Source of the DNA: an uncultured Clostridia bacterium
Lineage (GTDB): Bacteria > Bacillota > Clostridia > TANB77 > CAG-508
DNA length: 64,000 nt
Direction of reading: 5' to 3'
Assembly (NCBI GenBank): GCA_934129785.1
Contig: CAKOWW010000003.1
Coordinates: forward strand, 24,315-88,314
Shown piece by piece: positions 2,366 to 29,414 of this stretch. A program made the position numbers and the translations under genes. Under the pieces are notes generated by a model. The model made no database searches, was not told the DNA's origin, and saw nothing but the letters and a program-made list of their open reading frames with translations. The stretch's first letter is position 1. Each line of letters opens with the position of its first letter.

Positions 2366-4765
2366 ATGATTATAATTAAAAGACCAATTTTAGTTATAGT
2401 CATTGGATATATAATAGGAATTATAATGGGGCTATACAAAAATATAAGTATAGTCCCTTTGTATATTTTTTTGGCTATAATATATTTTATATATAAAAAA
2501 ATAAATTTATCAAAAAACAAAAAATTAAAATTCAAATTATTAAGTTTCAAAAGATATTTTAGATATATCAAATTAGTAATAAGTAAAAATGTGCTTGTTA
2601 CAATAATAATATCATCAATTATTTCTAATACAATCATTATAATTCAAAATAAAAGATACGAAAATAAATATAAAGATGGAGACCAAATATTTGGGAAAGC
2701 TGTTGTTATAAGTAATATGCAGGAAAAAGAATATAGCAATATGTACAAAATAAAACTTCTAAAAAATGGTGATAAATTTTATTTGAAATTGAATAAAAAG
2801 CAAAGCAAACTACAATATGGAGATGAAATAGAGCTAAAAGGAGAATTTATAGAACCACAAACAGCTAGAAATAAAGGAGGTTTTAATTATAAACAATATT
2901 TGAAAACATTGAAAATATATGGAACTATAAATGTGGAAAAAGTAGCCATTCTAGGAAAAAATAGAATTAATCCAATATTAAAATTTTCAAATGATATTCA
3001 TATAAAAATAGAAGAAAAAATAGAAAAATATTTAGATGAAAAACAAGCAGGAATTTTGAAAGGAATTTTATTAGGAGATTCAAAAAAAGTAGAAGAAGAA
3101 ATACAAGAAAACTTCAGAATAAGTAATATTTCACATGTTTTAGCAGTATCAGGTATGCATGTAAATTATATAATTTTAGGGATAGGTTGTTTATTAAAAC
3201 CATTATTTGGGAAAAGAAGAACAAGGAAAATAACAATAATATTCTTAGTGTTTTATATGTTTATAACAGGCTTTTCAGCTTCAATTGTAAGAGCAGGAGT
3301 AATGGGAATTATTATAATTTTAGGAAAGCTAATACATAGAAAAGAAGACACATGGACATCAATTTCAATTTCTTTATTAATTTTGTTAATAAACAATCCG
3401 TTTTCAATATTAAATATTAGTTTACAACTATCTTTTGCAGGAACAATGGGATTAGTGTTATTTAATAAAAAAATTCCTGGAATATTTTCAATAACACTAT
3501 GTGCACAAATAATGATATTTCCTATAATGATATATCATTTTAATATATTTGGAACATATTTTTTAATAACTAATTTATTAGCTGGAATAATAATTGGACC
3601 AATAATAATAATTGGAATTTTAGGAATTTTTAGTTCGATTTTTAGTTTAACAATAGCTAAAATGATATTTTTTATTGAAAAGATATCAGTAGAAATCTTA
3701 ATTTTAATATCTAAATTTTCAGAATTTTCAATGGCAAAAATTTATTTGCCAACACCCAGAATATGGCAAATAATTATATATTATATTATCGTATTTTTTA
3801 TAAAATCAATATATGAAGTTTATTCGGAAAAAAAGCCAAATGCAACTTTTATAAGAGTAAAAAATTTGCTAGCTTTGGCAAAATATAAATTTAGAAAAAA
3901 TAAAAGAAAAAACATAAAGAAAATAATGAGTATATTAATGATTTTAGTAGTTACATTTACAATAATAAAAAAACAATATAATATACTAAATATAAATTTT
4001 GTAGATGTTGGACAAGGAGATTCATGTTTTATTGTAACACCTAAAAATAAAACAATTTTAGTAGATGGAGGAGGAAGCCAATCTAAAGAATTTGATGTTG
4101 GGAAAAGTATATTATTACCATATATATTGAATAAAGGCTACACACAGATAGATTATATTGTAATTAGCCATTTTGATTATGACCATGTTGGTGGAATTTT
4201 ATACATTATGCAAGAAATAAAAGTGAAAAATATAATTATAGGAAAACAATTTGAAAATAGCCAAAACTATGAAAAGTTTGTAAATATAGTACAACAAAAA
4301 GATATAAAAGTTAGAATTGTAGAAGCAGGGGAAAATATAAAAATTGAGAAAGATTTAAATTTTAATGTAATATGGCCAAATTCTAAAAACGAAATTTCTG
4401 ATAATTCAATTAATAATAACTCTTTAGTATTTAAAATGATGTATAAGAAATTTTCGATGCTGTTTACAGGTGATATTGAAGAAATAGCTGAAAAGAAAAT
4501 ACTGCAAACTTGTAATGTTAAAAATTTAGAATCATTGGTTTTGAAAGTACCACATCATGGTTCTAAAACTTCTTCTAGTCAGGGATTTTTAGACGCAGTA
4601 AGACCTAAAATTGCGTTAATAGGTGTAGGAAAAAATAACAAATTTGGTCATCCTTCAGATATTACTTTAGAAAAGTTTAAAATGTATGATATAAAAGTGT
4701 ATAGAACAGACCAAAAAGGAGAAATTACCTTAAAAACAGATGGAAATAAAATAAAGATTTACTAA
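2366..4765 (+). CDS. comEC: DNA internalization competence protein ComEC/Rec2 (polytopic membrane domain plus C-terminal metallo-beta-lactamase)
   Basis: 799 aa; many TM segments; competence-domain motif HVLAVSGMH; C-terminal MBL motifs DVGQGDS, HFDYDHVGG, VPHHGSKTSS. Confidence 0.85.
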   Translation: MIIIKRPILVIVIGYIIGIIMGLYKNISIVPLYIFLAIIYFIYKKINLSKNKKLKFKLLSFKRYFRYIKLVISKNVLVTIIISSIISNTIIIIQNKRYENKYKDGDQIFGKAVVISNMQEKEYSNMYKIKLLKNGDKFYLKLNKKQSKLQYGDEIELKGEFIEPQTARNKGGFNYKQYLKTLKIYGTINVEKVAILGKNRINPILKFSNDIHIKIEEKIEKYLDEKQAGILKGILLGDSKKVEEEIQENFRISNISHVLAVSGMHVNYIILGIGCLLKPLFGKRRTRKITIIFLVFYMFITGFSASIVRAGVMGIIIILGKLIHRKEDTWTSISISLLILLINNPFSILNISLQLSFAGTMGLVLFNKKIPGIFSITLCAQIMIFPIMIYHFNIFGTYFLITNLLAGIIIGPIIIIGILGIFSSIFSLTIAKMIFFIEKISVEILILISKFSEFSMAKIYLPTPRIWQIIIYYIIVFFIKSIYEVYSEKKPNATFIRVKNLLALAKYKFRKNKRKNIKKIMSILMILVVTFTIIKKQYNILNINFVDVGQGDSCFIVTPKNKTILVDGGGSQSKEFDVGKSILLPYILNKGYTQIDYIVISHFDYDHVGGILYIMQEIKVKNIIIGKQFENSQNYEKFVNIVQQKDIKVRIVEAGENIKIEKDLNFNVIWPNSKNEISDNSINNNSLVFKMMYKKFSMLFTGDIEEIAEKKILQTCNVKNLESLVLKVPHHGSKTSSSQGFLDAVRPKIALIGVGKNNKFGHPSDITLEKFKMYDIKVYRTDQKGEITLKTDGNKIKIY

Positions 4766-6106: not shown

Positions 6107-8473
6107 CTATTTTACTTCAAATTTTAATTTATCATTTTCAAAATCTACTGCTACTGTTTGACCATCTAAAAGTTCACCTTTTAATATCATTTCAGATAAT
6201 TCATCTTCTACATATCTTTGAATAGCCCTTCTTAGAGGTCTAGCTCCAAATTTTATATCAGTACCTTTTTCTAATATATAATCTTTAGCACTTTTTGTTA
6301 TAGTCATTTTAATATCTTTATCATTAAGAGCTTTTTTTGTATCTTTTAACATTAAATCCACAATCTGTAACAATTGTTCTTTTGTTAAAGCATCAAAACT
6401 TATAATTTCATCAATTCTATTTAAGAATTCTGGTCTAAATACATCTTTTAAAGAATCAATTAATTTACCTTTGTCTACAGTTTGTTTACCAAAACCAATT
6501 GAGTTTGTATTAGTGTTTGAACCAGCGTTTGAAGTCATTATTATAATTGTATTTGAAAAACTTACAGTATTTCCTTGACTATCTGTTAATTTTCCATCAT
6601 CTAGTACTTGTAGTAAAATATTAAAAACATCTGGATGAGCTTTTTCAATTTCGTCTAATAGAATTATAGAATATGGTTTTCTTTTTACTTTATCAGTTAA
6701 TTGACCAGCATCATCATATCCAACATATCCTGGGGGAGCACCAATTAATTTTGAAGTTGAATGACTTTCCATATATTCAGACATATCAATTCTAATTATA
6801 TTATCTTCACTTCCAAACATTTCATAAGCTAAGCTTTTAGCAAGTTCTGTTTTACCTACACCAGTTGGACCTACAAATATAAATGAAGGTGGTCTTTTTG
6901 TACTTTTTAATCCTGCTCTATTTCTTCTTATAGCTCTTGCTACACAATTAACAGCTTCATCTTGACCAATAATTCTTTTATGAAGATTTGTTTCTAAATT
7001 TAATAGTTTTTGAGTTTCAGCTTCAGTAATTTTTTTAACTGGAATTTTAGTCCAACTTTCTATTACATTAGCAATATCTTGAATTGTTAATTGTTTAGGT
7101 TTCATTTTTTTGCTTAAAGTATCAATTTCTTCTATTAATTGACATTCGCGAGTTTTTAAATCTGCAGCTTTTTGATAATCTTCAGTAGAATCTGCTGCTA
7201 TAACTTCTTCTTTTTCAGATTGAACTTTACTTAGTTCTTGTTTTAACATCTCTAATTTATATAGGCTTTTATTTTCTAAGTTAATTCTAGAACAAGCTTC
7301 ATCTAGTATGTCTATTGCTTTATCAGGTAAAAATCTATCATGAATATATTTTTCTGACATAATAACAGCTTGACGAATAACATCTGAAGATATTTTGACT
7401 TTGTGATAATCTTCATAATATTTTTTAATTCCTTCCAAAATGCCTATAGAATCATCAATATTTGGTTCTTCTACAAGAACTTGTTGAAATCTTCTTTCTA
7501 ATGCTGAATCTTTTTCAATATATTTTCTATATTCTTTTAAAGTTGTAGTTCCAATTAATTGAATTTCTCCATTAGATAGAGCTGGTTTTAAGATGTTAGC
7601 TGCATTCATAGAATGTTCTCCATCTCCAGCACCTATAATGTTGTGAATTTCGTCAATAACTAAAATGATATTTCCATATTGCTTACATTCATCAATAATG
7701 CCTTTCATTCTAGATTCAAATTGACCTCTAAATTGTGTACCAGCGATTACAGATGTCATATCTAGTAAATAAACTTCTTTATTTAAAAGTTTTGCAGGTA
7801 CATTTTGATTAGCAATTCTAATTGCTAATCCTTGTGCAATAGCTGTTTTACCAACACCAGGTTCACCAATAAGGCAAGGATTATTTTTTGAACGTCTATT
7901 TAATATTTGTACAATTCTTTGGATTTCTTTTTCTCTACCTATAACTAAATCAAGTTCATTATTTTTTGCTTTATTTGTTAAGTTAGTTCCATAAGTATCT
8001 AAGAATTTCTTTTTCTTATTTTGGTTTTTCTTTTTTTCTACTTTTACTCTTTTTCTACTATTGCCAGGTTCTTCTTGTTCATCATTATCTTTATTCTTCA
8101 TCATGCTTGAAAAAATTGAACCTAAAGGAATAGCTGCTCCAGAAATTTTTGGACCATTTTCAGGGTCATCTTCATTATTTTGCTCAAAAGTTATAGCGCC
8201 TTCTATGTTTTCTATATCTTCTAAGTTAATATTTTCAGCTAAATCTTTAAAAATATTTTCAAATTGTTGTGTCATATCATTAATATTTAATTTGTCTTTA
8301 GAAAGAATTTCATTTTGATTTGTTATAACTTCAAGAGGATTTATACCTTTTTTCTTGGCACAGTCATAACAATAACCTTCTAAAGTCTCTTTTCCATTTT
8401 CTATTTTTTTATAAAAAACCACTGCTGGTTTATCATTACATTCTGAACATAACATGTGTTTTAAATTCCTCAT
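6107..8473 (-). CDS. clpE: ClpE-like Clp/Hsp100 AAA+ ATPase with N-terminal zinc ribbon
   Basis: Two Walker A sites ([23 protein letters not shown]); N-terminal CSEC..CYDC zinc ribbon in place of Clp_N repeats; coiled-coil linker between the AAA modules. Confidence 0.75.
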
Positions 8474-23227: not shown

Positions 23228-23392
23228 TTGAAAGCATGCAAAATAATGCTTATCATATTAAATTTTGTTACAATATTACTATTGCTTTTTAATTAATACT
23301 ATGGCTTAAGCTAGCCACTAGAGCATCCGCCGAATATTTCGATAACTCTAGACCTCGTCAACACTAATATGTAGTGTCCAGGCGCTTTATTA
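23228..23392 (-). ncRNA. glmS ribozyme (GlcN6P-sensing self-cleaving riboswitch) in the glmS 5' UTR
   Basis: Minus-strand sequence AAAGCGCCUGGACACUACAUAUUAGUGUUGACGAGGUCUAGAGUUAUCGAAAUAUUCGGCGGAUGC matches the conserved glmS ribozyme core (AGCGCC cleavage site, GACGAGG, GUUAUCGAA...UUCGGCGGAUGC). A P4 hairpin lies at 23231-23253. Confidence 0.85.
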
Positions 23393-23549
23393 TTTAACAT
23401 GTACTCCTTTCTTTTATTTTTTATTGTGCATTTCTTTCAACTTATGTTATTATATTATCCTAAAAATTGAAATGTTACAAGAGTATTTAGAAAATTTCTT
23501 GAATTTGGTCAAATTATAATATATAATTACGAAAGAAAAGAGGGATAAT

Positions 23550-24459: not shown

Positions 24460-25479
24460 ATGAACGAAGTAATATATTGCAATTATGGATTACAAAAGAG
24501 TAAAATAGAAAATTATTATAGACAAGAAAAAAGATCATTTTTTTGCATGGTAAAAGAAGATGAAGCTGAATATGAAATTGAGGTAAATCAGCCACACGAT
24601 AAAGGTTATAAAATAATTTTGGGAGATAAGGGAGAAGCAGCAAACTTTATTAGTAAAAGTTTAAACATAGAGATAGGACCAAAGGACATAGAAAAATATA
24701 CAACACATTTTATAACAAATAATTTTAGAAATAAGGATACAGACGTTGTTTATAAATTGAAGAATCAAAAAATATTTTTTCTTATTGAACACCAATCAAG
24801 TGTGGATTATGCAATGCCTTACAGATTGTTAATGTATGAAATGGAAATAATAAAAAGTGCTGTTGATGAAAAAAAGTTGCACATGTCAGATTATAAAATT
24901 CCAACAGTATATTCAATAGTATTATATACAGGAAAAAGAAAATGGAATGTAAAAAATGATTTTAATGAAATGCAAGAAAAACTAAAAGGAACATCGGCAA
25001 TCACATTAACAAATTATTATTTAGCAGACATAAGCAAAATGAAAGATGAAGAATTAATGGAAGATAAAAATTTATTATCAAAAGTGATGTTGTTAGATAA
25101 ATCCAAAACCAAAGATGAGCTTGAACGAAATTTGAATGAAATCACACAAAGACAAATGGTAGATGAAAAGAAAAATACCCTAAAAAAGATAATATATTTT
25201 ACTTTAGTAAAAAAAATAGGAATTGAAAAAGCTAAAGAATATTTAAAGAAATTAGAGAAAGGAGATTATAAAAGTATGTCTATGTTTGAAAAATATTTAG
25301 AAGATTTATTTGATAAAGGAGAGGAAAAGGGAATAGAAAAAGGAGTTCAAAATACAATAGAAAAGATTGTGAAAAACATGATAAAGAATAATTTGGCTGA
25401 TAAACAAATTATGAAAATTGCAAATATATCAAAAGAAAAATTGCTAGAAATCAAAAGTAAAATATTAGTACAAAAATAA
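24460..25479 (+). CDS. Rpn-family recombination-promoting nuclease / putative transposase (PD-(D/E)XK, YhgA-like)
   Basis: FFLIEHQSSVDYAMPYRLLMYEMEI core typical of the Rpn/transposase_31 family; 339 aa. Confidence 0.65.
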   Translation: MNEVIYCNYGLQKSKIENYYRQEKRSFFCMVKEDEAEYEIEVNQPHDKGYKIILGDKGEAANFISKSLNIEIGPKDIEKYTTHFITNNFRNKDTDVVYKLKNQKIFFLIEHQSSVDYAMPYRLLMYEMEIIKSAVDEKKLHMSDYKIPTVYSIVLYTGKRKWNVKNDFNEMQEKLKGTSAITLTNYYLADISKMKDEELMEDKNLLSKVMLLDKSKTKDELERNLNEITQRQMVDEKKNTLKKIIYFTLVKKIGIEKAKEYLKKLEKGDYKSMSMFEKYLEDLFDKGEEKGIEKGVQNTIEKIVKNMIKNNLADKQIMKIANISKEKLLEIKSKILVQK

Positions 25480-27154: not shown

Positions 27155-27231
27155 GGCGAAGTAGCTCAGTTGGCTAGAGCATTCGGTTCATACCCGAAGG
27201 GTCATGTGTTCGAATCACATCTTCGCTACCA
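27155..27231 (+). tRNA. elongator tRNA-Met (anticodon CAU), CCA encoded
   Basis: Cloverleaf: acceptor GGCGAAG/CTTCGCT, D-arm GCTC..GAGC, anticodon stem TTCGG/CCGAA with loop TTCATAC, T-arm ATGTG-TTCGAAT-CACAT, then ACCA. The GGTTCATACCC anticodon arm is typical of elongator Met. Confidence 0.85.
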
Positions 27232-27238
27232 ATAAATT

Positions 27239-27262
27239 AGCCCATTTGAGGGCTTTTTTTTA
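27239..27262 (+). terminator. terminator after tRNA-Met
   Basis: agccc-atttga-gggct followed by TTTTTTTT. Confidence 0.6.
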
Positions 27263-27466
27263 TTATAGGAAATTCATTTGATGAAGTACAAAACAAAATA
27301 ATTGTAAAATTTTACTGTGTTCGCTTGTTTTGGGGTAAAAAATGTTATATAGTGTTATACATAGAAAATGAGAATAAGCGGAGTGTGTTGCCACCTTTAA
27401 CTCTTTGATGTTTACATACTACTTCCACGACTTCTGGTTGTGAGATTGATATATGGGGGTGGTTAA

Positions 27467-27577
27467 TATGGTAGAATCAGTATTATTAAGTATTACATAC
27501 CTACTTTTCTTTGGATTAGTAGGAATGGCTATCATAAATGTTGCCTTGTTAATCATCATTTGTATTTTACTACATAG
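27467..27577 (+). CDS. 36-aa hydrophobic peptide, type I toxin-like (MVESVLLSITYLLFFGLVGMAIINVCLVNHHLYFTT)
   Basis: Strong SD GGGGGTGG 6 nt before the ATG; single TM helix; followed by a hairpin terminator. A convergent antisense transcript is predicted on the other strand. Confidence 0.5.
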   Translation, partial: YGRISIIKYYIPTFLWISRNGYHKCCLVNHHLYFTT

Positions 27578-27581
27578 GCAA

Positions 27582-27663
27582 TAAAAAATAAACCATTCTG
27601 CTTTTGACCGAGTGAATGGTTTATCTATTTCTCTGGCAACCACTTTCGTGGCTCTCATTTTCT
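27582..27663 (-). ncRNA. putative ~80-nt antisense sRNA (candidate type I antitoxin) convergent with the peptide gene
   Basis: Minus-strand promoter TTGACT-17-TATAAT (27698-27670). Transcript ends in a perfect terminator AAACCAUUC..GAAUGGUUU followed by UUUUUU, sharing the terminator hairpin region with the toxin mRNA 3' end. Confidence 0.4.
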
Positions 27664-27669
27664 ATTTTT

Positions 27670-27698
27670 ATTATACACAGATTTTTAAAAAAAGTCAA
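27670..27698 (-). promoter_or_regulatory. sigmaA promoter TTGACT-17-TATAAT on the minus strand
   Basis: Reverse complement of agtcaa(27693-27698) ... attata(27670-27675) with a 17-nt spacer. Confidence 0.5.
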
Positions 27699-27777
27699 TT
27701 TTTTATAGTAATATTTTATAAAAATGTATGCAACCGTGTATGCAACTAGAAAATAATATTTAATAAAAGTTTTATTA

Positions 27778-27823
27778 GTTCATACCCGAAGGACCACGTG
27801 TTCGAATCACATCTTCGCTACCA
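27778..27823 (+). repeat. direct repeat of the 3' 46 nt of tRNA-Met (anticodon loop to CCA); att-like scar
   Basis: gttcatacccgaagg...tgttcgaatcacatcttcgctacca is identical to tRNA positions 32-77 except for 3 mismatches in the variable/T-stem region. Confidence 0.8.
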
Positions 27824-28066
27824 TTCAAATAAAAATTAAAATAGCTTGTATCAACAGATACTTGCTATTTTTTTGGGACAATAAAAAAGATAATAGTTAA
27901 TAGTCTTATAAATAATATGTCAAATTAATAATTTCATAAATAAAAATTATATATAAAAACAGTATTTTAAAATTTCATAAATTAAAAATACATTTTCGTA
28001 AAATAAAATGAAAAATTTTAAAATCTAGTGATAAAATCCATATAACAAAATAAAGAGGTGATACAA

Positions 28067-28693
28067 ATGATTGATAGAATCTGTGCCTTTTTAACTAAAA
28101 GAATTAGAAAAGAAATGCCTGAAATTGATGACGAAAGAGCAGAAGTGATTTTCTATGGATTACAAAATATAGTAGGAGAAATTCCCAAAATATTTATAAT
28201 GCTAGGAATAGCATATATATTAGGAATATTCAAATGGTCATTATTTACTTTTTTAGCATTATTCCCATATAAAGGAACATCAGGTGGAGTACATTTAAAA
28301 ACACATATAGGTTGCACAATATTTACAACAATGTTTTATTGTATAATACCGTTTGCATCCCAATATATAGTGTTACCACAAATTGCAAAATATTTAGTGA
28401 TAGCATGTGTTTGGATATTTGGAATGATAATGATAAAACTTTATGCACCAGCTGACACAGAAGATGTACCAATATTAGAAGAAGGCGTACGAAAGAAGAA
28501 AAGGATAGTGGCATATATAACATTTTCATTAGGGATGCTTGTTGCTCTAATAACAGATAATAATATGATTACAAATATTTTAGTATTAGCAAATTTATTT
28601 CAAACAATTACAATTACTAAATTTATTTATAAATTGACAAATAGTAAGTATGGCTACGAAGTATATGGAGATACTTCAACTGAAATAGTTTGA
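28067..28693 (+). CDS. agrB: accessory gene regulator B (AgrD-processing membrane peptidase)
   Basis: ~200 aa polytopic protein; N-terminal ERAEVIFYGLQ and catalytic GGVHLKTHIGC (His/Cys) typical of AgrB; ATG at 28067 after AAAGAGGTGA. Confidence 0.75.
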   Translation: MIDRICAFLTKRIRKEMPEIDDERAEVIFYGLQNIVGEIPKIFIMLGIAYILGIFKWSLFTFLALFPYKGTSGGVHLKTHIGCTIFTTMFYCIIPFASQYIVLPQIAKYLVIACVWIFGMIMIKLYAPADTEDVPILEEGVRKKKRIVAYITFSLGMLVALITDNNMITNILVLANLFQTITITKFIYKLTNSKYGYEVYGDTSTEIV

Positions 28694-28876: not shown

Positions 28877-29034
28877 TTATAAACTAGTTCATTGGTAAAT
28901 ATAGCTTGAAAATGATATATTTACCAATGATATAACTTAAAAGTTATATTTATATACAATCCAAGAAAGAAAGTACTTTAAAGGAAAACTATTTTTAGTA
29001 ACATCCTTTAAAGTATTTTTTTTATGTTTTAAAA

Positions 29035-29335
29035 AACTATTTCGGAAGAGAAGAAATAAAGTCTGGAACCAAAGAATTGGTAAGAAGTATATTAGAAGAA
29101 GAAATAACTGAAATAGATTTAGAACAAAATCAAATACTAGAAAAAACATAAAAGACGAAAAAATAGGAATACTAGACATAAGAGCTAAACAACAATACAA
29201 ACTGCGATGTAGAAATACAATTAGAAGACCAAAAGAACATAGAAAAAAGAGCGTTATATTATTGGTCAAAAATGTATATAGAAAGTATAAAAGCAAACGG
29301 ATTTGGAAAACATAGTGGTGGAAGAAAATTCGTGT
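29035..29335 (+). pseudogene. degraded fragment of an Rpn-family (PD-(D/E)XK) nuclease gene
   Basis: Out-of-frame pieces ...KIGILDIRAK... and CDVEIQLEDQKNIEKRALYYWSKMYIESIKANGFG match the conserved core of the Rpn/transposase_31 family (compare the intact copy at 24460). Multiple stops and frameshifts. Confidence 0.5.
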
Positions 29336-29414
29336 ACAAACTTTTAGTACAAATATAGAATATGCTCAGAGAAAAAAGAAAAATTATGAATTATAAAAAA
29401 TGGGAGAGAATAAA

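What the first reader, a model, noticed from the sequence alone, without database searches (positions are those of the whole stretch)
27155..27823. tRNA-Met followed 546 bp later by a 46-nt direct repeat of its own 3' half (att-like scar)
Positions 27778-27823 repeat the tRNA from the anticodon loop through CCA, with 3 substitutions in the variable/T-stem part. Such duplication is the hallmark of integrase-mediated insertion into a tRNA 3' end (attL/attR). The segment between the repeats is only about 550 bp. It carries no integrase, only the toxin-like peptide locus. It therefore looks like a decayed or mini integrative element, and the TA-like module may have stabilised it. The accessory genes immediately downstream (the agrBD locus, the Rpn pseudogene, the pilin-FGE gene and the agrCA-like pair) may belong to the same integration hot spot.
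Basis: seen in the sequence. Interest (0 to 1): 0.6.

Follow-up and report, generated by a model that had tools for sequence, protein, structure and literature searches.

The report
Island scar at tRNA-Met holding toxin-antitoxin
A gut Clostridia genome carries the worn-down remains of a mobile element inserted into a methionine tRNA gene, of which only a small toxin/antisense-RNA "addiction" module survives; this is an ordinary kind of scar, but the module belongs to a widespread, unannotated family.

Summary
tRNA-Met (27155-27231) is followed 546 bp later by a 46-nt copy of its 3' part (27778-27823, 43/46 identical). The copy starts at the anticodon loop and ends at CCA.

The main interpretation holds. 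Six sister species have one tRNA-Met followed 225-350 bp later by agrB. In the window it is the partial copy that lies 243 bp from agrB, and it carries the clade's native type of terminator. The intact tRNA is followed by a foreign terminator.

That terminator (33/33 identical) and the next 483 bp (97.5% identical) recur in another species downstream of its tRNA-Met, separated there by 2.85 kb of genes. The window insert is therefore a deleted remnant of a larger island. All 12 conspecific contigs that cover the site carry the scar, with further indels. Tyrosine- and serine-integrase prophages occupy the same tRNA in relatives.

The surviving cargo looks like a type I toxin-antitoxin module: a 38-aa hydrophobic peptide with a convergent ~80-nt antisense RNA. 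At least 120 gut-metagenome loci and 58 peptide variants share its design, and none matches Pfam, NCBIfam or Rfam.

This is a known kind of feature, of moderate interest.

The parts
27155..27231 (+). Intact tRNA-Met(CAT), the regenerated target (attL side)
   Evidence: ARAGORN; Rfam RF00005, 67.9 bits. It is 100% conserved in all conspecific contigs and identical in 26 species-level loci.
27232..27264 (+). Foreign intrinsic terminator directly after the tRNA, taken to be island-derived
   Evidence: Terminator scan, and fold. It is 33/33 identical to the sequence after tRNA-Met in L151 and L097. It differs from the native terminator class of the clade.
27265..27285 (.). Junction segment at the place where 2.85 kb present in the L217/L151 version is missing
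   Evidence: BLAST blocks. The segment matches only conspecific contigs.
27286..27768 (+). Toxin-antitoxin block, 97.5% identical to L217, L151, L096, L112, L116 and L145
   Evidence: Discrete homology unit in alignment A2.
27325..27353 (+). Predicted toxin promoter (TTGTTT, 17-nt spacer, TATAGT); transcription would start near 27360
   Evidence: Read from the sequence. It is conserved in the alignment with L095 and L075. The conserved 23-nt motif starts at 27360.
27360..27382 (+). Conserved 5'-UTR motif CATAGRAAATGAGAATAAGCRGA
   Evidence: One copy in the window. Found in 2 viral contigs and at least 120 metagenome loci.
27468..27584 (+). 38-aa hydrophobic peptide ORF (MVESVLLSITYLLFFGLVGMAIINVALLIIICILLHRQ), the predicted toxin
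   Evidence: The ORF is preserved in 58 distinct peptide variants of 21-41 aa, all but three 33-41 aa. No Pfam or NCBIfam hit.
27582..27662 (-). Predicted ~80-nt antisense (antitoxin) RNA: a 5' hairpin plus an intrinsic terminator whose U-run exists only on the minus strand
   Evidence: Fold at -22.2 kcal/mol, z = -4.5. The hairpin changes sequence but keeps its pairing in L075.
27670..27698 (-). Predicted antitoxin promoter (TTGACT, 17-nt spacer, TATAAT; 11 of 12 consensus positions)
   Evidence: The -35 hexamer lies at a constant distance in 63 unique homologues.
27634..27665 (+). 3' partner of a ~30-bp long-range pairing with the toxin 5' UTR (27361-27393)
   Evidence: Minimum-energy folds of three homologues. 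Consensus fold with one covarying pair. Own pairs versus cross-subfamily pairs: -25.1 versus -17.9 kcal/mol.
27769..27777 (.). Remainder of the island arm next to the partial copy. Other strains have 70 more bases here with three GATAATATTTAAyA repeats
   Evidence: Alignment A1.
27778..27823 (+). Displaced 3' fragment of tRNA-Met (attR side), decaying
   Evidence: Substitutions differ between strains while the real tRNA never varies.
27838..27874 (+). Native tRNA-Met terminator, now behind the partial copy
   Evidence: Fold at -13.9 kcal/mol, z = -6.4. A homologous hairpin follows the intact tRNA in L032, and the same terminator class follows it in L015, L021, L028, L058 and L072.
28067..28693 (+). 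agrB, the conserved right-hand flank; not part of the insertion
   Evidence: Pfam AgrB. It is syntenic with this tRNA-Met in 16 species-level loci.

Best explanation
The 592-bp unit is the scar of a genetic element that integrated by site-specific recombination into the 3' half of tRNA-Met. The crossover lay in or near the anticodon loop.

Integration regenerated the tRNA at the left junction. It pushed the original 3' fragment, with the tRNA's own terminator and the agr locus, to the right junction.

The element then lost its recombinase and almost everything else by internal deletions. One deletion removed about 2.85 kb that a related island still carries (an XRE regulator, a 211-aa protein and a DUF5780 protein).

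What remains is a foreign terminator and a ~380-bp module built like a type I toxin-antitoxin system. It has a 38-aa membrane-type peptide gene and a convergent ~80-nt antisense RNA that overlaps the toxin mRNA's 3' untranslated region.

The module probably outlasted the rest because losing the whole module, or its antitoxin alone, would let the stable toxin mRNA kill the cell (post-segregational killing). Deletions elsewhere in the element cost nothing.

Shown: the duplication, the foreign origin of the DNA between the copies, the empty sites in relatives, the longer homologous island, and the conserved architecture of the module.

Inferred: that an integrase made the junctions, that the two RNAs are expressed, that the peptide is toxic, and that addiction explains the module's survival.
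For: Anatomy
- There is an intact tRNA and a direct 46-nt 3' fragment that starts at the anticodon loop. The Islander paper describes a regenerated tDNA plus a displaced 3' fragment as marking island ends. It counts anticodon-centred attP sites in 2083 islands against 1836 with T-stem-region sites (PMC4383910).

Empty sites
- In L066, L057, L071, L026, L021 and L032 a single identical tRNA-Met is followed 225-350 bp later by agrB. In the window the partial copy lies 243 bp from agrB.

Native versus foreign flank
- The hairpin after the partial copy matches the hairpin after the intact tRNA in L032. It belongs to the terminator class seen in L015, L021, L028, L058 and L072.
- The terminator after the intact tRNA is 33/33 identical to that of L151 and L097, which come from a different species.

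Larger ancestor
- L217 and L151 have tRNA-Met, the same terminator, 2.85 kb (XRE, 211 aa, DUF5780), and then a block 97.5% identical to 27286-27768.
- The shared truA-like protein is only 77% identical and the tRNAs differ. The block was therefore transferred horizontally.

Recombinases that use this tRNA
- Tyrosine integrases with ImmA and XRE genes abut the identical tRNA-Met in L030 and L043.
- A large serine recombinase abuts it in L094.

Independent second case
- L046 has its own partial copy with the same left boundary. It encloses 383 bp that carry a different small-ORF and antisense-promoter module.

Neutral decay
- The real tRNA is invariant in all strains. The copy carries substitutions that differ between strains.

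Toxin-antitoxin logic
- Four contigs (L006, L007, L009, L010) have lost the toxin promoter and the 5' half of the ORF through a ~181-bp deletion. They keep the antisense promoter and RNA.
- 63 unique homologues keep the ORF, both promoters and a constant length.
- Type I toxin-antitoxin systems have been shown to maintain a prophage in C. difficile (PMC7699646).
Against: - No recombinase gene remains, and no intact element flanked by this same 46-nt repeat was found. That covers 80 species-level loci, IMG/VR, and the metagenome collection.
- The attR ends of the tyrosine-integrase prophages in L030 and L043 were out of reach. It is therefore not shown that they produce a repeat of this length.
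- The one phage attR seen in the L217-type species (L112, L215, L129, L097) has only a 16-nt core at the tRNA 3' end, not 46 nt.
- The L217/L151 island has no partial tRNA copy at its right end.
- Two substitutions in the copy are shared by all strains. They could be early decay or sequence brought by the element, so the exact crossover point is not fixed.
- Expression, toxicity and addiction were not tested.
Confidence: 0.75

Rival explanations
1. The insert is a miniature, non-autonomous integrative cassette. It would consist of a toxin-antitoxin module plus an attP-like tRNA fragment, and would be moved in and out of tRNA-Met by the integrase of a co-resident prophage. On this view it is not the leftover of a large element.
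For: - Two species (the window species and L046) each have a very small insert with the same left boundary, and each holds only a small-ORF and antisense-promoter module.
- Strains of the L003 type have three GATAATATTTAAyA repeats next to the partial copy. These could be arm-type binding sites.
- Integrases that use this tRNA exist in the clade.
Against: - The insert is collinear with the L217/L151 island apart from 2.85 kb, which points to an internal deletion of a larger element.
- Among the ~120 other loci that carry the module motif, none has the module enclosed between a tRNA and a copy of its 3' end. The only tRNA-fragment repeats found (L142, L211) flank integrase-bearing islands that do not contain the module.
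- The attR-type pattern was absent from the metagenome collection.
- The scar is fixed and decaying in all 12 conspecific contigs that cover the site, and no empty allele was seen.
Confidence: 0.1
2. The partial copy is the remnant of a second, tandem tRNA-Met gene that lost its 5' half. The toxin-antitoxin module landed between the two genes by an unrelated route.
For: - tRNA genes are often tandemly duplicated.
- The copy is decaying like a pseudogene.
- The toxin-antitoxin module occurs in many unrelated contexts.
Against: - None of the 80 species-level loci has two complete tRNA-Met genes at this site.
- The fragment boundary falls on the anticodon loop in two independent species.
- The native terminator and agrB follow the fragment, not the intact gene.
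- The terminator behind the intact gene came from elsewhere together with the toxin-antitoxin block.
Confidence: 0.05
3. The foreign block entered by homologous recombination or specialised transduction from a donor of the L217 type. Such DNA would already hold tRNA-Met, the terminator and the toxin-antitoxin block, and no integration event need have occurred in this lineage. The duplication would be a by-product of the junctions.
For: - The terminator and the toxin-antitoxin block are 97-100% identical to those of a species whose genome is otherwise about 77% identical at the protein level. The transfer was therefore recent.
- In that species a prophage sits directly beside the block (L112), which gives a route for aberrant excision.
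Against: - Homologous replacement does not create a direct duplication of the tRNA 3' half with a sharp anticodon-loop boundary.
- The window's intact tRNA is of the local type, not the donor type.
Confidence: 0.1

Closest known systems
tDNA-integrated genomic islands and their degenerate remnants (Islander concept; Williams 2002 sublocations)
   Same: There is a regenerated tRNA gene and a displaced 3' fragment in direct orientation. The boundary lies at the anticodon loop. Foreign DNA lies between the copies, and relatives have empty sites (PMC4383910).
   Different: No integrase remains and the island is only 546 bp long. Islander-type searches require an integrase, so they would miss it.
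Prophage-borne type I toxin-antitoxin systems of Bacillus subtilis (txpA/RatA, bsrG/SR4, bsrE/SR5)
   Same: From my own knowledge of these systems: a small hydrophobic toxin, a convergent antisense RNA that overlaps the 3' end of the toxin mRNA, and a location on prophages or prophage remnants. The predicted layout here is the same.
   Different: No sequence relationship is detectable: no Pfam, NCBIfam or Rfam hit. The conserved 23-nt 5'-UTR motif and the similarity between the toxin 5' UTR and the antitoxin 5' end are particular to this family.
C. difficile prophage type I toxin-antitoxin systems (for example CD0977.1-RCd11)
   Same: These are type I modules on integrated elements in Clostridia. 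They have been shown to stabilise the element through post-segregational killing (PMC7699646). That is the mechanism proposed here for why the module survived.
   Different: No sequence comparison with the C. difficile toxins was made here. Here the element has already decayed, and its function is untested.
hok/sok-type long-range 5'-3' pairing of toxin mRNAs
   Same: A ~30-bp pairing between the 5' end and a distant 3' segment of the toxin transcript is predicted in every homologue. Changes between subfamilies are compensatory. From my own knowledge, hok mRNA is kept inactive in this way.
   Different: The peptide and the host lineage are unrelated. Here the 3' partner is also the template of the antitoxin, so the antitoxin's 5' part resembles the toxin's 5' UTR. 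Whether the toxin transcript reaches that far is unknown.

Membership tests
tRNA-integrated genomic island (Islander criteria) | Intact tDNA plus a displaced fragment of the same tDNA in direct orientation | tested here: met
   43/46 identity, same strand, 592 bp start to start.
tRNA-integrated genomic island (Islander criteria) | Fragment boundary at a canonical crossover sublocation (anticodon loop, T loop or T/acceptor junction) | tested here: met
   Identity starts at the anticodon loop in the window and in L046. Sublocations as listed in PMC4383910.
tRNA-integrated genomic island (Islander criteria) | DNA between the copies is absent from the same site in relatives (empty site) | tested here: met
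   a single tRNA is followed by agrB at 225-350 bp in six species. In the window the partial copy lies 243 bp from agrB.
tRNA-integrated genomic island (Islander criteria) | Integrase gene inside the island | tested here: not met
   The longest ORF is 79 aa and overlaps the toxin gene on the opposite strand. No integrase is present. The longer L217 version also lacks one.
tRNA-integrated genomic island (Islander criteria) | Excision to a circular form and restoration of the empty site | not testable with these tools
   This needs read-level data or experiments. No empty allele was found among the 12 conspecific contigs that cover the site.
Type I toxin-antitoxin system | Small (under 60 aa) hydrophobic, membrane-type toxin ORF with its own ribosome-binding site | tested here: met
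   38-aa ORF at 27468-27584 with GGGGGTGG upstream. The ORF is kept in 58 peptide variants.
Type I toxin-antitoxin system | Antisense RNA gene with its own promoter and terminator that overlaps the toxin transcript | tested here: met
   Sequence-level evidence only. The promoter matches 11 of 12 consensus positions. The terminator has a U-run only on the minus strand. Position is conserved in 63 homologues. Transcription itself was not tested.
Type I toxin-antitoxin system | Toxicity of the peptide and its neutralisation by the RNA | not testable with these tools
   This needs expression experiments.
Known type I toxin or antitoxin families (Fst, Hok, Ldr, TisB, TxpA/BsrG and others; Rfam antitoxin RNAs) | Match to the family's profile | tested here: not met
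   No Pfam or NCBIfam hit for three diverse members at E up to 10, apart from one sub-threshold NCBIfam match to an unrelated sorting domain. No Rfam match above noise.
Prophage | Phage structural, replication or lysis genes between the att sites | tested here: not met
   Only 546 bp lie between the copies. The insert has no meaningful match in the phage or plasmid collections.

The most novel reading that the evidence does not exclude
tRNA-Met in this clade may be used by miniature integrative cassettes that consist only of a type I toxin-antitoxin module and an attP-like tRNA fragment. Prophage integrases would mobilise them in trans, making them selfish "addiction cassettes" that hitch-hike on tRNA integration sites. 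The two independent mini-inserts (window species and L046), the arm-like repeats and the frequent position of this module family beside tRNA genes would then reflect active targeting rather than decay.
Probability: 0.1. Interest if true: 0.7.

Novelty: new member of a known kind. Interest (0 to 1): 0.4.

Why it matters
Scars of this kind mark where mobile DNA has entered and left a genome. This one is a clean natural example of an integrated element worn down to its addiction module, which is what the post-segregational-killing idea predicts. Some strains have taken the next step and lost the toxin while keeping the antitoxin.

The practical gain is the module itself. A 23-nt motif retrieves at least 120 gut-metagenome loci that encode 58 variants of an unannotated hydrophobic peptide with a conserved antisense design. 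This points to a sizeable family of type I toxin-antitoxin-like loci in uncultured gut Clostridia that gene callers and family databases miss.

The work also shows that the agr quorum-sensing locus next to the tRNA is core to the clade, not island cargo.

Tried and rejected
- An exact or degenerate search for the tRNA 3' half in IMG/VR found only a full tRNA next to a serine-recombinase prophage (L094), and no attP.
- A pattern for attR-type junctions (AT-rich arm plus partial copy) found nothing in the metagenome collection.
- The 546-bp insert gave only short AT-rich chance matches in the phage and plasmid collections.
- A protein search with the 43-aa form of the peptide found one homologue only, because such small ORFs are rarely called. 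The DNA motif search was far more productive.
- I tried to see the attR of the tyrosine-integrase prophages through IMG/VR relatives (L218, L219). The contigs end at the tRNA side and the other end has no copy.
- A MITE or IS reading was rejected. There is no transposase. The inverted repeat lies inside the two promoters rather than at the ends of the homology block. The flanking repeat is 46 nt of tRNA, not a short target duplication.
- I considered that the variable-loop differences in the copy (GGACC versus GGGTC) reflect the ancestral host tRNA. This was rejected because 26 related loci all have GGGTC.
- I looked for a short tRNA-end repeat at the right end of the L217 island and found none.

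Full report
**Observation**

ARAGORN finds one tRNA in the window, tRNA-Met(CAT) at 27155-27231. Rfam agrees, with 67.9 bits.

Positions 27778-27823 repeat tRNA positions 27186-27231 with 43 of 46 bases identical. The three differences are at 27793 and 27794 (variable region) and at 27797 (second base of the T-stem, where the change breaks a pair). The last 24 bases are identical in both copies, and 100 shuffles of the window gave no such match.

Identity begins at the last base of the anticodon stem or the first base of the anticodon loop, and runs to CCA. The fragment alone is not called a tRNA.

**What lies between and around the copies**

Each copy has its own intrinsic terminator:
- a short GC hairpin with a T-run right after the intact tRNA (27232-27264);
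- a longer hairpin with a T-run after the fragment (27838-27874; -13.9 kcal/mol, z = -6.4).

Between the copies there is no ORF above 79 aa and no recombinase. There is a 38-aa hydrophobic ORF (27468-27584) with a strong ribosome-binding site.

Facing that ORF is a near-consensus promoter on the minus strand (TTGACT, 17-nt spacer, TATAAT; 27698 to 27670). It would drive an ~80-nt RNA (27662 to 27582). That RNA folds into a 5' hairpin and a terminator whose U-run exists only on the minus strand.

**Within the species**

Look-ups of neighbouring proteins recovered metagenome contigs of the same species from human-gut samples (L001 and L003-L013). Twelve of them cover the site, and all twelve carry the duplication. 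The spacing between copies varies: 592, 663/664, 580 and 483 bp.

The variation comes from three indels (alignment A1):
- a ~181-bp deletion with TTTGG microhomology, which removes the toxin promoter, the 5' UTR and the first 14 codons in L006, L007, L009 and L010;
- a 70-bp indel flanked by ATAATATTTAATA repeats;
- a 13-bp deletion in L004.

The real tRNA is invariant. The fragment carries two substitutions shared by all strains, plus further ones that differ between strains. It is therefore drifting like a pseudogene.

That test asked whether related genomes show the same duplication without indel polymorphism. The scar is simply fixed in this species.

**Between species**

A scan of one genome per species with the upstream DAP-dehydrogenase-like protein returned 80 loci from uncultured gut Clostridia. 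Their records carry names such as Clostridium sp. CAG:440 and CAG:567.

Twenty-six loci hold a tRNA-Met identical to the window's. Only one of them, L046, has a second partial copy.

In L066, L057, L071, L026, L021 and L032 the single tRNA is followed 225-350 bp later by agrB. In the window, agrB lies 243 bp after the partial copy. The spacer after the partial copy shares the agrB-proximal motifs of those species. It is 65% identical to L032 over 250 aligned positions, including the terminator hairpin. The same terminator class follows the intact tRNA in L015, L021, L028, L058 and L072.

So the fragment, its terminator and agrB are the original 3' end of the locus. The 592-bp unit is an insertion.

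agrB and the agrC-like kinase accompany this tRNA in 16 loci. They are therefore core flank and not cargo.

**Origin of the inserted DNA**

In L217 and L151, which come from a different species, the order is:
1. a tRNA-Met of a different sequence;
2. a terminator 33/33 identical to window 27232-27264;
3. 2.85 kb encoding an XRE regulator, a 211-aa protein and a DUF5780 protein;
4. a block 97.5% identical to window 27286-27768.

In that species the truA-like protein is only 77% identical to the window's. In the window, the terminator and the block are 21 bases apart.

The insert is therefore a deleted version of a larger island. It was exchanged horizontally not long ago.

L112, L215, L129 and L097 show the same flank behind a prophage whose attR core is only 16 nt of the tRNA end. 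That phage is a different element.

**Recombinases at this tRNA**

- L030 and L043 have a tyrosine integrase with ImmA-like and XRE genes directly after the identical tRNA-Met.
- L094 has a large serine recombinase whose stop codon overlaps the tRNA end.
- Other species carry a MazF-like gene, a DUF4143 gene, a DUF3800 fragment or an HTH gene between the tRNA and agrB. L025 has a DNA methylase directly after the tRNA.

The site is a hot spot across the clade.

L046 has its own 383-bp insert between tRNA-Met and a partial copy with the same left boundary. It carries a different small ORF, a hairpin next to its ribosome-binding site, a terminator and a convergent consensus promoter.

The far ends of the tyrosine-integrase prophages could not be reached. 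It is therefore not shown that they generate a 46-nt repeat.

**The module**

Sixty-three unique homologues keep the same plan within 299-343 nt: the 5'-UTR motif, a ribosome-binding site, an ORF, a hairpin, and a minus-strand -35 hexamer.

They belong to a family with 58 distinct peptides of 21-41 aa (all but three are 33-41 aa), in about five subfamilies. All have a hydrophobic body and a short polar tail. Nothing in Pfam, NCBIfam or Rfam matches.

In every homologue the first ~34 nt of the toxin transcript can pair with a segment about 270 nt downstream. That segment is also the template for the start of the antisense RNA. Three results support the pairing:
- minimum-energy folds of three distant members contain it;
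- a consensus fold keeps the terminal helix, with one pair switching between G-C (50 sequences) and A-U (10 sequences);
- the variable part pairs better with its own partner than with partners from other subfamilies, at -25.1 versus -17.9 kcal/mol.

This fits the long-range 5'-3' locking known for hok-type toxin mRNAs. The 3'-overlapping antisense layout resembles the B. subtilis prophage systems. Both comparisons rest on my own knowledge of those systems. Transcription and toxicity are untested.

**Mechanism**

An element carrying a copy of the tRNA 3' half integrated at tRNA-Met. The junctions have the standard form described for tDNA islands (PMC4383910). Deletions then removed the recombinase and the cargo.

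The toxin-antitoxin-like module remained. Type I modules have been shown to penalise loss of a C. difficile prophage (PMC7699646), so deletions that take the module or its antitoxin would be selected against.

The strains that lost the toxin half but kept the antitoxin show the only safe way to inactivate such a module.

**Rivals**

- An active mini-cassette mobilised in trans is not excluded. It is disfavoured by the collinearity with the longer island, by fixation and decay in all strains, and by the absence of similar flanks around other copies.
- A decayed tandem tRNA gene is disfavoured by the absence of tandem genes in 80 species, by the shared anticodon-loop boundary in two species, and by the placement of the native terminator.
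- Entry by homologous recombination or transduction may explain how the block travelled. It does not by itself produce this duplication.

**Verdict**

This is a real, well-supported att-type scar of a decayed island. It is a known kind of feature. Its added value is that it is a clear example of a toxin-antitoxin module as the last survivor of an element, and that it exposes a widespread unannotated family of type I toxin-antitoxin-like loci.

Noticed in passing
window 27360-27698; loci L095-L217: The toxin module belongs to a large unannotated family. A 23-nt 5'-UTR motif hits at least 120 metagenome loci and 2 IMG/VR contigs. There are 58 distinct hydrophobic peptides of 21-41 aa (all but three 33-41 aa) in about five subfamilies, with a constant 299-343-nt layout. 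None matches Pfam, NCBIfam or Rfam.
   Followed up: partly
window 27361-27393 paired with 27634-27665: The toxin 5' UTR is complementary to a segment about 270 nt downstream, which is also the template of the antisense RNA's 5' end. The antitoxin therefore resembles the toxin 5' UTR. The pairing is kept with compensatory changes across subfamilies.
   Followed up: partly
L046 8438-8942: A second species has its own tRNA-Met 3'-half duplication with the same anticodon-loop boundary. It encloses 383 bp with a 22-aa ORF, a terminator and a convergent consensus promoter.
   Followed up: partly
L016, L018, L019, L037, L047, L065, L072 (tRNA-Met region): In several related species the tRNA-Met lies in inverted orientation relative to the DAP-dehydrogenase-like gene. 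In L018 and L019 an orf97-like ORF is inverted with it. This suggests a site-specific or repeat-mediated inversion at this locus.
   Followed up: no
window 28900-31300; L003 14400-15430; L004 14300-18600: The segment between agrD and the agrC-like kinase differs between strains of the same species. The window has 263-aa and 276-aa ORFs, L003 has a PDDEXK_2 gene, and L004 has three other genes. This is a second variable slot, separate from the tRNA scar.
   Followed up: no
window 27725-27745; L217 (reverse strand) 4208-4228 and 7486-7507: Tandem TGTATGCAA pairs flank the L217/L151 island at both ends. The window keeps only the right-hand pair. They may be operator or recombination sites; this is unexplained.
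   Followed up: no
L099, L102, L104, L107, L115, L118, L120 and other loci: One module subfamily (peptides M[EG]FILFLIYALGFSL...) nearly always lies so that its 5'-UTR motif starts 364 nt from the near end of a tRNA-Gly(TCC) gene on the same strand. In all, 32 of 123 loci have a tRNA within 3 kb of a module.
   Followed up: no
L094 598-2143: An IMG/VR prophage carries a large serine recombinase (Resolvase, Recombinase and Zn-ribbon domains). The last 17 nt of its gene overlap the 3' end of the identical tRNA-Met.
   Followed up: partly
L142 1128-11145; L211 5-8616: Integrase-bearing islands in tRNA-Leu(TAA) and tRNA-Thr are flanked by exact 30-nt copies of the tRNA 3' end. A module of this toxin-antitoxin family lies 0.35-1.4 kb outside the right-hand copy.
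   Followed up: partly
window 23246-23397 (-): A glmS ribozyme (Rfam RF00234, 89.6 bits) lies upstream of the glmS gene. Further upstream are a TraG-D_C gene (18246-20606) and an Rpn/YhgA-like Transposase_31 gene (24460-25479).
   Followed up: no
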